Assembly (NCBI GenBank): GCA_000004985.1
Contig: GG739253.1
Length of the DNA: 2,644 bases
Strand: one strand, 5' to 3'
Source of the DNA: Naegleria gruberi
Taxonomy: Eukaryota
The notes beneath the pieces are model-generated. The model was given only the letters and a program-made list of their open reading frames with translations. It was not told where the DNA came from and ran no database searches. The first letter of the stretch is position 1; the number at the start of each line of letters is the position of its first letter. Shown here one piece after another: positions 1 through 2,644 of this stretch. The translations under genes and the position numbers were made by a program.

Positions 1-32
1 CTATCATTTACTATAGACATTTGACATGATGT

Positions 33-118
33 CATAGATTACACTCCAACTCACTCACTTTACATACAGTCAATCTAGAATTGATACCACATAGAGTATA
101 CATAAGTTAAATACACTG
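33..118 (+). repeat. Copy 1 of a degenerate dispersed direct repeat (core catagATTACAcTCCAaCTCAcTCActtTACA, then ~20 nt, then cata.AGTAT....AATACACT)
   Basis: 24 of 29 positions are identical to the copy at 939-967. The downstream half (cata g AGTAT acataagtt AAATACACT, ~90-118) matches the copy at 348-418. Confidence 0.5.
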
Positions 119-347
119 TATATAGTTTGGAAACAATTCGTATTACTTACAATTAGTCAGTCAGTTAATGTTCAATGTCAAAAGTGATTATATCCAAGTG
201 TACACTCTATCTCAATGAATGTACATCCTATCATCATGTAACTTTACCAGATACGTTTAATCATACTATTATACATATGGTATCAATTTAAGTCTATTAG
301 AGTTGAATTCAGTATGATAATAATAACAATCTGCCAAATTGTCAGAT

Positions 348-418
348 TTCAACATATAGAATATACTCCATCTCATTCATTTTACAAAATATCATACAAG
401 TATCAAATATGAATACAC
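348..418 (+). repeat. Copy 2 of the same degenerate direct repeat (catatagaatatacTCCATCTCATTCATTTTACAAaat ... catacaAGTATcaaatatgAATACACTc)
   Basis: The core 367-387 tccatctcattcattttacaa matches 951-970 tccatctcagtcatttcaac at 16 of 17 positions over the first 17 nt, and also matches 44-67. The downstream AGTAT...AATACACT half matches copy 1. Confidence 0.5.
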
Positions 419-730
419 TCTTCTTGGTGAGGAGAACAATCTGTGAGAGTTTCATATTGATGGCTCAATATCTTCAACTCAAGAACATCTAAGGTAATAA
501 ATAGGGAAGAATCTTAATTCCAAAATTAAATTTTACTATCATATCAAAATCATTGAATAATGAATTATTTATACAAGAATAATATATTCAATTGTTATAC
601 TCATGTCAGTAATCAGTGAAGGTGATACTTCTTCAACAGTAGTTTTCACATCTCAATATGTAGACAGTCAATTCCACTGAAACTTGAAATATTACCTATC
701 TAGATGATAGAATGATGACTCTCCATTGTA

Positions 731-740
731 ACATGCATGT
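731..740. repeat. Perfect 10-bp palindrome acatgcatgt (ATGCAT core). A related 8-bp palindrome tgcatgca lies at 1292-1299.
   Basis: The reverse complement of acatgcatgt equals itself, and the same holds for tgcatgca at 1292-1299. Confidence 0.7.
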
Positions 741-938
741 GAAATTGAATGTTGACAGTTTACATCTTGTTATATTTATAGAGATGGTATCCAACAGAGT
801 CAGTTCATAATATTAAATATTGAAACTCATTCTGTATGACATGTTTGATGTATAGAACGGTTTTTTATTGAATATAATCAGTTTGAAATAATTTGATGAA
901 ATTGACACTGTCTAGTCACCATTACATAACAAATAGAC

Positions 939-970
939 CATAGTTTACATTCCATCTCAGTCATTTCAAC
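939..970 (+). repeat. Copy 3 (core only) of the same degenerate direct repeat (catagTTTACATTCCATCTCAgTCATTTcaac)
   Basis: Aligned base by base to 33-63 (24/29) and to 365-387. Same orientation. The downstream half is not clearly retained. Confidence 0.45.
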
Positions 971-1174
971 GAGTTATTGATTAATTCAACCAACATTATG
1001 TTTCTCATACATTGTAGTACAGTTTATATTTCAAGAGTGATTTCTATGTAGATTTTTATATTTCAAATAGATTATTCAATATAGAACACATCTAGATAGT
1101 TTCCATATCATAAAAGTCAAGCTACTATATATGGTCTTTGATTAAATTTAAAAATAGACTGCCGTTAATTACTG

Positions 1175-1188
1175 GAATATTAATATTC
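1175..1188. repeat. Perfect 14-bp palindrome gaatattaatattc. It sits next to the hairpin-forming agcttg-ttgat-caagct (1191-1207, which contains the palindrome ttgatcaa) and ttgatt-ga-aatcaa (1209-1222).
   Basis: Checked base by base: the reverse complement of gaatattaatattc equals itself. agcttg and caagct are exact reverse complements. Confidence 0.7.
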
Positions 1189-1327
1189 AAAGCTTGTTGA
1201 TCAAGCTATTGATTGAAATCAAACCGATTATTGAATATTGATCATTGAATTGGAGAAGACTCACTCTCTTGATAATGTTACTTATTCATATTGCATGCAA
1301 ATCAACCTGATTCAATCTACAAAGGTT

Positions 1328-1358
1328 GGTAGTTGCACCACTTCGTGGCGAAACTACC
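1328..1358. other. Isolated GC-rich hairpin: 7-bp stem ggtagtt/aactacc enclosing a second 4-5 bp stem (c..ccac/gtgg..g) with a ttc loop. Function unknown.
   Basis: 1328-1334 ggtagtt pairs perfectly with 1352-1358 aactacc. Inside, 1338-1341 ccac pairs with 1345-1348 gtgg (plus the c1336-g1350 pair) around loop 1342-1344 ttc. The block 1324-1370 (ggttggtagttgcaccacttcgtggcgaaactacccatccacgatc) is the most GC-rich island in the noncoding region. Confidence 0.45.
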
Positions 1359-2011
1359 CATCCACGATCAATCAACATATGTTTCACTTCCATTCAACTC
1401 AATTTGACAGTTATAAACAATAAATCAATGAAATGTTACTTTATTAGCAATACCTATTCAATCTAATGAGTAGATTCACGTCCCAAACATTTGACTTCTC
1501 AAAGTCCATAATACAAAAGTTAGTTCTGACCTGACCTTTAAATATCTATCAATATAAGAAATGAAGCCATCAAATTTACATCATTTATAGATGATAAGAA
1601 ATATAATCAATGATATAAATCTTCACTAAGTAATCTCTTAAATAACCCAAATAAATCAACTCTGAATCCTAACCAAACCCCATGATGATGATTCACCAAC
1701 TTGAATTTTTCCAATATCAAAATTACTATCTAATTCCATAACGATAAACTTCCACATAAAACTACTATTATTACTATTATATTGATGATGTATAGATGAT
1801 GAGGTTCAATTCTTGGAGTGGGAAGATGAAGAACCACTCCGAAAATAAGCTACTCATAAAATTGATATTTTTTATGAATGCAAGATACATCTTTGTTGAG
1901 TTTACTATGAATATTCTTTCGATGTCTTTGAGGCTCAAAACTGTGCAATTGGCTTAGGACTCAAAACTATTAAGGAAGTATTGCTTCCATTTTTATTTTG
2001 CTTACTGGATT

Positions 2012-2049
2012 TTCCAGGAAAGATTTTTTTAAGAAACTCCTTCCTGGAA
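2012..2049. promoter_or_regulatory. Pair of TTCCNGGAA palindromic nonamers (ttccaggaa 2012-2020 and ttcctggaa 2041-2049). They are exact reverse complements of each other, 20 nt apart, and sit ~90-125 nt upstream of the ATG at 2137.
   Basis: Read directly from the sequence. Each nonamer is a palindrome around a single centre base (a versus t). Together they can form a 9-bp stem with a 20-nt loop in DNA or in a 5' leader. Confidence 0.3.
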
Positions 2050-2136
2050 TACCCCAGCCAGAAATCCTTACGGCCACATCTGAAACCAGAAGAAAAGGTT
2101 GCTGCCACTACTAATCAACAAGTTGTTGTTGTTGAA

Positions 2137-2283
2137 ATGACAGAACAACCAAAGGAAGTAGAGAACGTTGTTGAAGAACAAACAATTTCCACACAAGAGC
2201 TACTCAACAAGAACAAGTTGTGTGGTGAATGTGTTGCTGTTGTTGTTGGTGACGATGAAAATAATGGTGAATCACAAGTTTAA
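2137..2283 (+). CDS. Candidate small ORF of 48 aa (MTEQPKEVENVVEEQTISTQELLNKNKLCGECVAVVVGDDENNGESQV*). Alternatively it is the terminal exon of a gene whose start lies upstream. Product unknown.
   Basis: The first in-frame ATG is at 2137-2139 and the TAA stop at 2281-2283. Codon use is strongly yeast-like (gtt, gaa, caa, ggt, aag, ttg). AATAAA overlaps the stop. The track's 100-aa version starts at a TTG (1981) and the frame is actually open back to a TGA at 1897-1899 with no ATG, so the true 5' end is unresolved. Confidence 0.35.
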   Translation: MTEQPKEVENVVEEQTISTQELLNKNKLCGECVAVVVGDDENNGESQV

Positions 2284-2288
2284 ATAAA
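2283..2288 (+). terminator. AATAAA poly(A)/3'-end positioning signal for the + strand ORF
   Basis: aataaa at 2283-2288 overlaps the TAA stop (2281-2283), followed by T-rich sequence (ctttgaatatttttc). Confidence 0.3.
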
Positions 2289-2315
2289 CTTTGAATATTT
2301 TTCATCATTCCATCA

Positions 2316-2321
2316 TTTATT
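2316..2321 (-). terminator. AATAAA poly(A)/3'-end signal for the - strand gene (+ strand tttatt)
   Basis: + strand tttatt at 2316-2321 reads AATAAA on the - strand, 54 nt 3' of the - strand stop. The two convergent genes therefore have 3' signals that pass each other within a 91-bp spacer. Confidence 0.3.
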
Positions 2322-2374
2322 TTCATCACTATGGTATTTTGCTTTGAGAACTGAGTTCTGAGCTGAAAATGAAA

Positions 2375-2644
2375 TTACAAATTACTCTCTGGTGATTTCA
2401 CTTCTTTTTCCAATGTTACAGAATTTGTTGAATCCATGGCCACGCCATTCGACGCTTCAGATGTAACAACAGATGGTGTTGATGGCACACTTGACATGGA
2501 ATCAATCAATTTCATAGTATTTTTCAATTCTTGTTGTTGATTATTCACATTTCCAACTTGATCAATTCCTGCTTCCTCTCTCCACTGTTGTAAAATATCC
2601 CTCGTTTTCTTTGATTGATTTTTCAACCTTTCGAATACATCTGT
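2375..2644 (-). CDS. Partial CDS: the C-terminal 89 codons plus stop of a longer protein-coding gene that continues past the right window edge. Product unknown. The tail is Ser/Thr/Asn/Gln-rich: ...TDVFERLKNQSKKTRDILQQWREEAGIDQVGNVNNQQQELKNTMKLIDSMSSVPSTPSVVTSEASNGVAMDSTNSVTLEKEVKSPESNL*
   Basis: The - strand frame is open from the TAA stop (+ strand tta at 2375-2377) through the last complete codon at 2642-2644 (cct/ttc/gaa/tac/atc/tgt translate on the - strand to R,E,F,V,D,T). The track's 'M' at 2624-2626 is a TTG codon (+ strand caa) and not a real start. The stretch is 90 codons without a stop in AT-rich DNA, with yeast-like codon choice and an AATAAA (+ strand tttatt, 2316-2321) 54 nt downstream of the stop. 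Confidence 0.6.
   Translation of the reverse strand, partial: TDVFERLKNQSKKTRDILQQWREEAGIDQVGNVNNQQQELKNTMKLIDSMSSVPSTPSVVTSEASNGVAMDSTNSVTLEKEVKSPESNL

What the first reader, a model, noticed from the sequence alone, without database searches (positions are those of the whole stretch)
1900..2283. Reading frame stays open 78 codons upstream of the only in-frame ATG: small ORF or unrecognised upstream exon or start?
The + frame containing the 48-aa ORF (ATG 2137) is open back to a TGA at 1897-1899 with no ATG in between. In about 70% AT DNA, 78 stop-free codons is improbable by chance, at an order-of-magnitude estimate of 0.5% per frame. However, the distal part of that open stretch uses codons that are rare for yeast-like genomes (ccc, agc, cgg, and ctg three times) and looks noncoding. 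Good codon usage begins around 2085-2100. There are three possibilities. (a) It is a genuine tiny protein of 48 aa. (b) An intron with an acceptor near 2088-2092 (accAG|aAG) or 2121-2122 (a TACTAAT branch-like heptamer lies at 2109-2115) joins an upstream ATG exon. A frame-2 ATG ORF at 1826-1957 (43 codons) overlaps the region. (c) It is chance. The track's 100-aa call from TTG 1981 is an artefact of a bacterial start-codon table.
Basis: partly seen in the sequence, partly recalled or inferred. Interest (0 to 1): 0.5.

Follow-up and report, generated by a model that had tools for sequence, protein, structure and literature searches.

The report
Candidate unannotated small ORF in Naegleria
The open frame is real, but only its last ~66 codons look like coding sequence; it lies in the amoeba Naegleria gruberi (not a yeast) and is most likely an unannotated, orphan 48-residue acidic mini-protein gene, an ordinary kind of thing that cannot be proven without RNA or ribosome data.

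Summary
TGA is at 1897-1899, frame 1 is open over 1900-2280, the only in-frame ATG is at 2137 (79 codons in, not 78), and TAA is at 2281-2283.

The yeast premise is wrong. The convergent minus-strand ORF (2378-2644) is 100% identical to the C-terminus of Naegleria gruberi NAEGRDRAFT_58380, an RGS-domain protein.

The open frame has two parts:
- **2083-2280:** very strong 3-base periodicity (chi2 49 against a null maximum of 14). The change point lies at about 2074-2089, upstream of the ATG.
- **1900-2082:** no periodicity (P 0.5). It carries two copies of the palindrome TTCCWGGAA that form a hairpin. This part is open plausibly by chance (P 0.013-0.12).

No canonical donor plus ATG exon supports an intron. 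No homologue or annotation was found.

The coding-like part is low-complexity: 25 distinct codons in 66, and 41 of 66 belong to the GTT/AAC and GAA/AAG triplet families. Triplet-slippage DNA is therefore a serious rival.

My best guess, at about 0.45, is an unannotated acidic, disordered small-protein gene starting at ATG 2137, possibly extended from CTG 2080. Interest is low to moderate.

The parts
2137..2283 (+). 48-aa ATG ORF, stop included: MTEQPKEVENVVEEQTISTQELLNKNKLCGECVAVVVGDDENNGESQV. It is acidic (pI 4.05).
   Evidence: The ORF is shown. Base-by-codon-position chi2 is 26.0 (P 2e-4), against a null maximum of 14.5 for 144-nt windows in 1-1896. G at codon position 1 is 48%. The exact sequence is not in the 15-billion-protein collection. 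No homologue was found.
2080..2136 (+). In-frame stretch directly upstream of the ATG that carries the same codon periodicity as the ORF. It is either a 5' leader, an N-terminal extension starting at the near-cognate CTG 2080, or the start of a 3' exon after CAG 2087-2089.
   Evidence: Extending backward from the ATG with the ORF's own position-specific composition peaks at 2089 with 17.3 bits and plateaus to 2071. The null 99th percentile is 7.5 and the null maximum is 13.9. For 2083-2136, chi2 is 28.6 with 0 of 20000 permutations reaching it. The maximal scoring segment is 2074-2280 at 51.4 bits.
1900..2079 (+). Distal part of the open frame. It is stop-free and has no in-frame ATG, but shows no coding signal. 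It is most likely a noncoding 5' flank, leader or promoter region that is open by chance.
   Evidence: For 1900-2082, chi2 is 5.2 and permutation P is 0.52. Cumulative LLR falls steadily upstream of about 2068. T at codon position 1 is 36%. The stretch holds the rare codons and the palindrome pair.
2012..2049 (.). Two copies of the self-complementary 9-mer TTCCWGGAA (2012-2020 and 2041-2049). They form an inverted repeat and an RNA/DNA hairpin 88-125 nt upstream of ATG 2137. This is a candidate regulatory element.
   Evidence: There are 2 matches against 0.01 expected, and 0 of 200 shuffles reach 2. It is inverted repeat I2. The hairpin has dG -20.6 kcal/mol and z = -3.47.
1897..1899 (+). TGA that closes the frame on the 5' side.
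   Evidence: Shown. Reading it as selenocysteine is not supported: Rfam gives no SECIS hit at E <= 1, and there is no in-frame ATG between the next upstream stop (TAA 1846-1848) and the TGA.
2283..2288 (+). AATAAA hexamer overlapping the TAA stop. It is a possible polyadenylation signal.
   Evidence: Read directly from the sequence. It lies inside a 23-nt block (GTGAATCACAAGTTTAAATAAAC) that is identical in the related metagenome contig L001, whereas the spacer beyond it is rearranged.
2375..2644 (-). 3' end of the convergent neighbour gene, N. gruberi NAEGRDRAFT_58380 (XP_002675909.1), an RGS-domain membrane protein. Its stop is 91 nt from the small ORF's stop.
   Evidence: The 89-aa translation is identical to the C-terminus of P0003. 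It is 97% identical to P0001. DNA is 99% identical to L001.

Best explanation
The window is Naegleria gruberi nuclear DNA. The 3' third of the open frame (about 2080-2283) is an unannotated, intronless small protein-coding gene. It lies tail-to-tail with the RGS-domain gene NAEGRDRAFT_58380.

Translation most likely starts at the only AUG (2137). The product would be a 48-residue, acidic, largely disordered orphan peptide ending at a TAA that overlaps an AATAAA signal. A minority of product, or an ancestral form, may start about 19 codons earlier, for example at CUG 2080.

The distal 60 codons (1900-2079) are not coding. They are 5'-flanking or leader DNA that holds a pair of TTCCWGGAA palindromes, and they are stop-free by chance in a locally stop-poor composition.

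Shown here: the organism, the frame anatomy, the periodicity boundary, the absence of annotation and of homologues, and the absence of canonical splice donors. Inferred: transcription, translation, the start codon, and any function of the peptide or the palindromes.
For: **Organism and context.**
- The neighbour tail is identical to N. gruberi XP_002675909.1.
- The N. gruberi genome is 57.8% coding with an average gene length of 1.7 kb (PMC9928731). A gene abutting the neighbour's 3' end is therefore expected architecture.

**Coding signal.**
- For 2083-2280, chi2 is 49.3 (P 6e-9) against a null maximum of 14.3. It survives removal of the two GTT runs (chi2 30.2, P 5e-5).
- The in-frame codon log-likelihood is positive and the two other frames are negative.
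- The maximal scoring segment of the whole window, 51.4 bits, ends exactly at the stop.
- GC is 0.36-0.40 here against 0.25-0.30 in the upstream 1.8 kb.

**Start.**
- ATG 2137 is preceded by the longest ATG-free stretch of the plus strand: 215 nt counting all frames, P 0.004-0.04.

**3' end.**
- TAA overlaps AATAAA. The 23 nt around the stop are identical in a related strain whose adjacent spacer has indels and a replaced segment.

**No intron needed.**
- No canonical donor is present, and Naegleria introns are short.

**Distal part noncoding.**
- It has no periodicity and contains the palindrome pair and hairpin.
Against: - No homologue was found anywhere. The exhaustive HMMER search of 1.84 billion representatives hit only the neighbour part of the query. 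Metagenome, viral and prokaryote scans found no relative. There is no Pfam or PDB match.
- The ORF is not in the annotated protein set.
- The coding-like signal is not bounded by the ATG. It starts 16-21 codons upstream, where there is no AUG.
- The segment is low-complexity. It has only 25 distinct codons in 66, below every 66-codon window of the neighbour gene (minimum 27). 41 of 66 codons belong to the GTT/AAC and GAA/AAG triplet families. The periodicity disappears when each codon type is counted once (P 0.29).
- Codon choice differs from the neighbour gene. Val is GTT 12/13 here against 11/40 there. Gly is GGT 3/3 here against 3/24 there.
- With a codon table built from the neighbour gene, the in-frame score is not better than some other frames of the same region.
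- The AlphaFold2 single-sequence model is coil with pLDDT 57.
- The minus strand also has its longest ATG-free gap here, so ATG depletion may be compositional.
Confidence: 0.45

Rival explanations
1. It is not a gene. The stretch 2083-2280 is low-complexity DNA built from short in-phase runs of a few triplets (GTT/AAC/CAA and GAA/AAG) that grew by replication slippage in units of three. Such DNA is 3-periodic and stop-free in one phase by construction. The ATG, the TAA and the further 61 open codons are coincidences.
For: - 41 of 66 codons belong to two triplet families. There are only 25 distinct codons, below all coding and noncoding control windows.
- The periodicity vanishes when each codon type is counted once.
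- The periodic signal ignores the ATG.
- No homologue and no annotation were found.
- The AlphaFold2 model shows no confident fold beyond one short helix.
- An open frame of this length is not rare at local composition (P 0.16).
Against: - Tandem Repeats Finder reports no array in 2083-2280 even at score 30, and the longest run is 4 units.
- Nothing similar occurs in the 1.9 kb of noncoding DNA upstream.
- Phase is kept over 198 nt, although the adjacent spacer accumulates non-triplet indels between strains.
- The periodic block ends exactly at a stop codon fused to AATAAA, and that junction is conserved in L001.
Confidence: 0.3
2. It is the 3'-terminal exon of a spliced, unannotated gene. An acceptor at CAG 2087-2089 (or 2055-2057 / 2059-2061) joins a short ATG-containing exon further upstream. 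This would explain why coding-like sequence starts without an AUG.
For: - The periodicity change point (2089, plateau to 2071) coincides with CAG|A at 2087-2090.
- A loose branch-like CTTAC lies about 20 nt upstream.
- One frame-compatible model exists: ATG 1466, donor GTTAGT 1519, acceptor at 2057 or 2033, giving 92-100 aa.
Against: - The plus strand has no GTAAGT or GTATGT donor.
- All models with introns of 450 nt or less have donors matching at most 4 of 6 positions. The 5-of-6 donors need introns of 515-1885 nt. This compares with 48 nt for the neighbour's intron and a genus median of about 80 bp.
- No other significant coding-like island lies upstream on the plus strand. The best is 13.6 bits, which equals the null maximum, and it has no ATG in frame.
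- No annotated protein containing these residues was found.
Confidence: 0.1
3. It is a decaying remnant (pseudogene) of a formerly longer frame-1 gene. Weak acidic frame-1 islands at 1795-1836 and 1921-1980 and the strong block at 2074-2280 would be pieces of one old ORF, now interrupted by TAA 1846 and TGA 1897 and lacking its start.
For: - All three positive islands are in frame 1.
- GC is raised over the whole of 1800-2300.
- There is no usable AUG for the full coding-like block.
Against: - The two upstream islands do not exceed the null distribution.
- Decay would be expected to be even, yet 2074-2280 is intact and strongly periodic while 1900-2068 has no signal at all.
- No parent or paralogue was found in any protein search.
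Confidence: 0.1

Closest known systems
Unannotated small ORFs (smORFs / micropeptide genes) in eukaryotic genomes
   Same: It is a short AUG-to-stop ORF of fewer than 100 codons that falls below typical annotation cut-offs. It has codon periodicity, its own putative poly(A) signal, no domain and no detectable homologues.
   Different: No transcript, ribosome-footprint or conservation evidence is available here. The coding-like signal runs past the AUG.
Non-AUG (CUG) initiated N-terminal extensions of eukaryotic proteins
   Same: In-frame coding-like sequence lies upstream of the first AUG. A CUG at 2080 lies within the plateau of the change-point curve (2071-2089).
   Different: The CUG context is poor (C at -3, A at +4). 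No hairpin follows it; the hairpin lies upstream. Nothing is known to me about near-cognate initiation in Naegleria. Not tested.
Short spliceosomal introns of Naegleria (example: the 48-nt intron of NAEGRDRAFT_58380, GTAAGT...CTAAT...AG)
   Same: A CTAAT-containing heptamer (TACTAAT, 2109-2115) and several AG acceptors lie in the region.
   Different: The plus strand has no matching GTAAGT-type donor with an ATG exon within a typical intron length. The TACTAAT lies inside the coding-like block rather than upstream of it.
Coding or noncoding trinucleotide-repeat low-complexity tracts of AT-rich protist genomes
   Same: GTT/CAA/AAC and GAA/AAG triplets dominate. The result is very strong 3-periodicity and low codon diversity.
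   Different: Runs are at most 4 units long, TRF calls no array, and the tract is bounded by a stop plus AATAAA.

Membership tests
Protein-coding small ORF (smORF gene) | AUG-initiated open frame ending in a stop codon | tested here: met
   ATG 2137 to TAA 2281-2283, 48 codons.
Protein-coding small ORF (smORF gene) | Codon-position periodicity or codon bias specific to the reading frame | tested here: inconclusive
   Periodicity is strong (chi2 26 for the ORF and 49 for 2083-2280), and the in-frame score beats the other frames with a generic AT-rich table. However, the signal is driven by a few repeated triplets. It is also not frame-specific with a table built from the neighbour gene.
Protein-coding small ORF (smORF gene) | Conservation of the open frame in related genomes | tested here: inconclusive
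   Only the last 8 codons plus the stop are covered by the related contig L001. They are identical, and then the last 6 nt at the contig end differ. No other relative could be reached.
Protein-coding small ORF (smORF gene) | Evidence of transcription and translation | not testable with these tools
   No RNA-seq, EST or ribosome-profiling data are accessible.
   The plus strand has no such donor. Models with introns of 450 nt or less have donors matching at most 4 of 6, and 5-of-6 donors need introns of at least 515 nt. Reference intron sizes are 48 nt and a median of 80 bp.
   CAG at 2087-2089 coincides with the change point at 2089. AG dinucleotides are common, so this is weak evidence.
Selenoprotein gene (in-frame TGA read as Sec) | SECIS element in the 3' UTR and an AUG upstream of the TGA | tested here: not met
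   Rfam gives no SECIS match at E <= 1. With TGA read through, the frame opens only back to 1849, and there is no in-frame ATG in 1849-1896.
Trinucleotide microsatellite | Head-to-tail array of one triplet detectable as a tandem repeat | tested here: not met
   TRF at minimum score 30 reports nothing in 1900-2300. The longest run is (GTT)4. Composition is nevertheless dominated by two triplet families.
   The neighbour is 100% identical to the Naegleria gruberi protein XP_002675909.1.

The most novel reading that the evidence does not exclude
The coding-like block 2080-2280 is translated as a roughly 67-residue acidic protein from the near-cognate CUG at 2080 (or after recent loss of an AUG there). 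It would be a lineage-specific gene that arose de novo from triplet-slippage DNA downstream of a palindromic TTCCWGGAA promoter element. That would be an example of non-AUG initiation and de novo gene birth in a heterolobosean.
Probability: 0.08. Interest if true: 0.45.

Novelty: new member of a known kind. Interest (0 to 1): 0.22.

Why it matters
If real, it adds one orphan, acidic mini-protein to the Naegleria gruberi gene set. It would also illustrate that small genes fall below the annotation cut-off in this genome. That is useful for re-annotation but not surprising.

The practical lesson for the scan is larger. The host organism was misjudged, so the yeast-based arguments about splice signals and rare codons do not apply. 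A long open frame can also be a composite of a short coding-like block and a chance-open flank.

The paired TTCCWGGAA palindromes are a concrete candidate cis-element in an organism whose promoters are, to my knowledge, poorly described.

Tried and rejected
- **Alternative genetic codes.** I tried tables 4, 6, 10, 12, 14-16, 25-27 and 31. None gives convincing long ORFs in 1-1900.
- **RNA genes.** There is no tRNA. Rfam gives only two sub-threshold hits at E 0.6-0.9 and no SECIS.
- **Homologue searches with the search for homologous proteins.** I queried the 127-aa frame, the neighbour tail, and a 2176-aa concatenate of all six-frame segments plus P0003. All returned nothing. The tool also failed to return P0001 and P0002, which are near-identical cluster representatives, so these negatives are weak. 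I rely instead on the exhaustive HMMER job.
- **Collection scans.** Both metagenome scans, a viral exact-DNA scan, and viral and prokaryote protein-pattern scans found nothing.
- **Pfam and PDB.** Only sub-threshold noise came back.
- **Exact look-ups.** The 48-aa ORF, the 100-aa ORF and eight other window ORFs are absent from the collection. The N. gruberi scaffold itself could not be fetched.
- **Internal duplication.** I tested whether 2060-2136 duplicates part of the ORF. Only the GTT run matches, and it is not significant against a codon shuffle.
- **Bacterial promoter and terminator scan.** Not applicable to this organism and uninformative.
- **AlphaFold2.** The single-sequence model of the 67-aa reading has low confidence, so I ran no fold search.
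- **STAT/GAS lead for TTCCWGGAA.** The literature search gave nothing specific to Naegleria, so it stays a lead.
- **Frameshift model.** I rejected a join of the frame-2 ATG ORF 1796-1957 to frame 1. That ORF scores as noncoding and its product looks like junk.

Full report
**Observation.** TGA is at 1897-1899. Frame 1 then has 127 sense codons (1900-2280) with a single in-frame ATG at 2137, followed by TAA at 2281-2283. The stretch upstream of the ATG is 79 codons, not 78. The ATG ORF is 48 aa. The 100-aa TTG call at 1981-2283 is what a table-11 ORF lister produces. TACTAAT at 2109-2115, the AG dinucleotides at 2088-2089 and 2091-2092, and the listed rare codons are all present.

**Chance.** At the local frequency (3.4%) it is 0.065. 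In Markov-1 simulations of a 2644-nt window, an open frame of at least 127 codons in any of six frames occurs with P = 0.015 (global composition) or 0.16 (local composition). The frame is unusual but not extreme.

**Organism.**
- Word-index protein searches found nothing.
- An exhaustive HMMER search used the 127-aa frame concatenated with the 89-aa minus-strand ORF tail. It returned exactly one protein, P0001, matching only the tail at 97% identity.
- P0001 lies on a 2.3-kb ENA metagenome contig, L001.
- The ORF upstream of it on L001 clusters with XP_002675909.1 / NAEGRDRAFT_58380, a 650-aa RGS-domain protein of Naegleria gruberi NEG-M.
- The C-terminus of that protein is identical, residue for residue, to the translation of window 2378-2644 on the minus strand.
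- The window is therefore N. gruberi nuclear DNA (Heterolobosea), not yeast.
- N. gruberi is about 35% GC and 57.8% coding, with an average gene length of 1.7 kb (PMC9928731).
- The neighbour gene contains a 48-nt intron, GTAAGT...CTAAT...AG, seen in the L001 relative. The N. lovaniensis median intron is 80 bp (PMC6125883).

**Anatomy of the open frame.** The frame is a composite of two parts.

*The 3' part (2083-2280):*
- Base-by-codon-position chi2 is 49.3 (P 6e-9). No 198-nt window in 1-1896 exceeds 14.3.
- G at codon position 1 is 50% and T is 8%.
- I took the position-specific composition of the ATG ORF alone and extended backward from 2136. The cumulative score rises to 17.3 bits at 2089, stays flat to 2071, then falls steadily. 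The null 99th percentile is 7.5 and the null maximum is 13.9.
- The best-scoring segment in the whole window is 2074-2280, at 51.4 bits.

*The distal part (1900-2082):*
- It has no periodicity (chi2 5.2, P 0.52).
- It contains two copies of the self-complementary 9-mer TTCCWGGAA, at 2012-2020 and 2041-2049. The expectation is 0.01 per window, and 0 of 200 shuffles reach 2.
- The two copies form an inverted repeat and a hairpin of -20.6 kcal/mol, z = -3.5.

The distal 61 codons are best read as noncoding and open by chance. Their probability is about 0.013-0.12, derived from the frequencies.

**Is the 3' block a gene?**

*Points in favour:*
- The periodicity survives masking of the two GTT runs (chi2 30.2, P 5e-5).
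- A generic AT-rich codon table gives positive in-frame and negative out-of-frame scores.
- GC is 0.36-0.40 here against 0.25-0.30 upstream.
- The block ends exactly at a TAA fused to AATAAA.
- The 23 nt around that stop are identical in L001, although the adjoining spacer between the two convergent stops carries indels and a replaced segment.
- ATG 2137 follows the longest ATG-free stretch of the plus strand (215 nt, P 0.004-0.04).
- The palindrome pair sits 88-125 nt upstream, where a promoter element could be.

*Points against:*
- No homologue was found in 1.84 billion representative proteins, in metagenome, viral or prokaryote DNA scans, or in Pfam and PDB.
- The 48-aa and 100-aa sequences are not in the 15-billion-protein collection, so the ORF is not annotated.
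- The block is low-complexity. It has 25 distinct codons in 66, fewer than any 66-codon window of the neighbour gene (27-41) or of the noncoding DNA (minimum 28).
- GTT, GAA and CAA make up 28 of 66 codons. 41 of 66 belong to the GTT/AAC and GAA/AAG triplet families.
- The periodicity disappears if each codon type is counted once (P 0.29).
- With a codon table built from the neighbour gene, the frame is not distinguished from other frames of the same region.
- AlphaFold2 on a single sequence gives coil at pLDDT 57.
- The coding-like signal does not respect the ATG.

**Intron model.**
- The plus strand has no GTAAGT or GTATGT. The only near-donors are GTATGA at 312 and 834.
- I enumerated every ATG exon, GT donor and AG acceptor combination that joins frame 1 without a stop.
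- With introns of 450 nt or less, no donor matches more than 4 of 6 positions.
- The 5-of-6 donors (GTTAGT 1519, GTCAGT 605/799, GTAACT 238) require introns of 515-1885 nt. That is far above the genus norm.
- The one point in favour is that CAG 2087-2089 coincides with the change point.
- I keep this model at about 0.1.

**Other readings.**
- *Selenocysteine at TGA 1897.* This is not supported. Rfam finds no SECIS, and there is no in-frame ATG between the next upstream stop at 1846 and the TGA.
- *Frameshift join to the frame-2 ATG ORF 1796-1957.* This is rejected because that ORF scores as noncoding.
- *Pseudogene remnant.* This is possible. Weak frame-1 islands lie at 1795-1836 and 1921-1980, but they do not exceed the null, and no parent was found.
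- *In-frame CTG at 2080.* It sits on the plateau of the change-point curve, so a CUG-initiated or formerly AUG-initiated 67-aa form cannot be excluded.

**Verdict.**
- The most likely reading (about 0.45) is an unannotated, intronless, orphan small gene. It would encode a 48-aa acidic, disordered peptide from ATG 2137 and lie tail-to-tail with NAEGRDRAFT_58380.
- Its upstream 'open' stretch would be a noncoding flank that is stop-free by chance.
- The main rival (about 0.3) is non-genic triplet-slippage low-complexity DNA.
- Both are ordinary phenomena.
- RNA-seq or RACE, ribosome profiling, or the orthologous sequence from close Naegleria relatives would settle the question.

Noticed in passing
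window 2012-2020 and 2041-2049: There are two copies of the palindromic 9-mer TTCCWGGAA, 29 nt apart. The expectation is 0.01 per window and 0 of 200 shuffles reach 2. They form a hairpin (dG -20.6, z -3.5). The arrangement resembles TTCN3GAA (GAS/STAT-type) sites, a resemblance from my own knowledge that I did not test. It is a candidate promoter or regulatory element.
   Followed up: partly
window 2375-2644 (- strand); L001 196-2196: The neighbour is the 3' end of N. gruberi NAEGRDRAFT_58380. This is a 650-aa protein with a signal-peptide-like N-terminus, several hydrophobic stretches that look like transmembrane segments by eye (not tested), and a C-terminal RGS domain. One 48-nt GTAAGT...CTAAT...AG intron splits the RGS region (seen in L001).
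   Followed up: partly
window 1-1896: This 1.9 kb of 25-30% GC DNA has no stop-free stretch above 62 codons in any frame or tested genetic code, and no tRNA or Rfam hit. That is roughly twice the average non-coding spacing expected in a 57.8%-coding genome. Its nature (long promoter, decayed element or ncRNA locus) is unknown.
   Followed up: partly
window 34-60, 356-382, 940-966: A 27-nt motif (ATAGAATATACTCCATCTCATTCATTT and variants at 81% identity) occurs three times on the same strand, with unrelated flanks. A rough estimate suggests this is more than chance. Its function is unknown.
   Followed up: partly
window 1324-1362: A locally GC-richer hairpin (GGTAGTT...AACTACC around a CCAC/GTGG stem, dG -16.1, z -2.3) lies in the middle of the AT-rich region. 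There is no Rfam match.
   Followed up: partly
L001 2197-2322 versus window 2263-2377: A metagenome contig (ENA ERZ929261) from a Naegleria gruberi-like strain is 99% identical in the RGS coding sequence. The 91-nt spacer between the two convergent stops carries a 2-nt indel and a replaced segment of about 25 versus 44 nt. The 23 nt around the small ORF's stop are identical. The last 6 nt at the contig end differ.
   Followed up: yes
window 1795-1836 (+ strand, frame 1): This short acidic stretch, DDEVQFLEWEDEEP, is in the same frame as the ORF. It has ORF-like codon-position composition (13.6 bits, equal to the null maximum). It has no in-frame ATG and is cut off by TAA 1846.
   Followed up: partly
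tools (versus 27, 33): The word-index protein search returned no hit for queries that contain sequences 97-99% identical to cluster representatives (P0001, P0002). The exhaustive search and the exact look-up did find those proteins.
   Followed up: yes
window 1763-1801: Two small adjacent tandem duplications (TACTATTAT x2 and TATAGATGATG x2) lie just upstream of the frame-2 ATG ORF.
   Followed up: no
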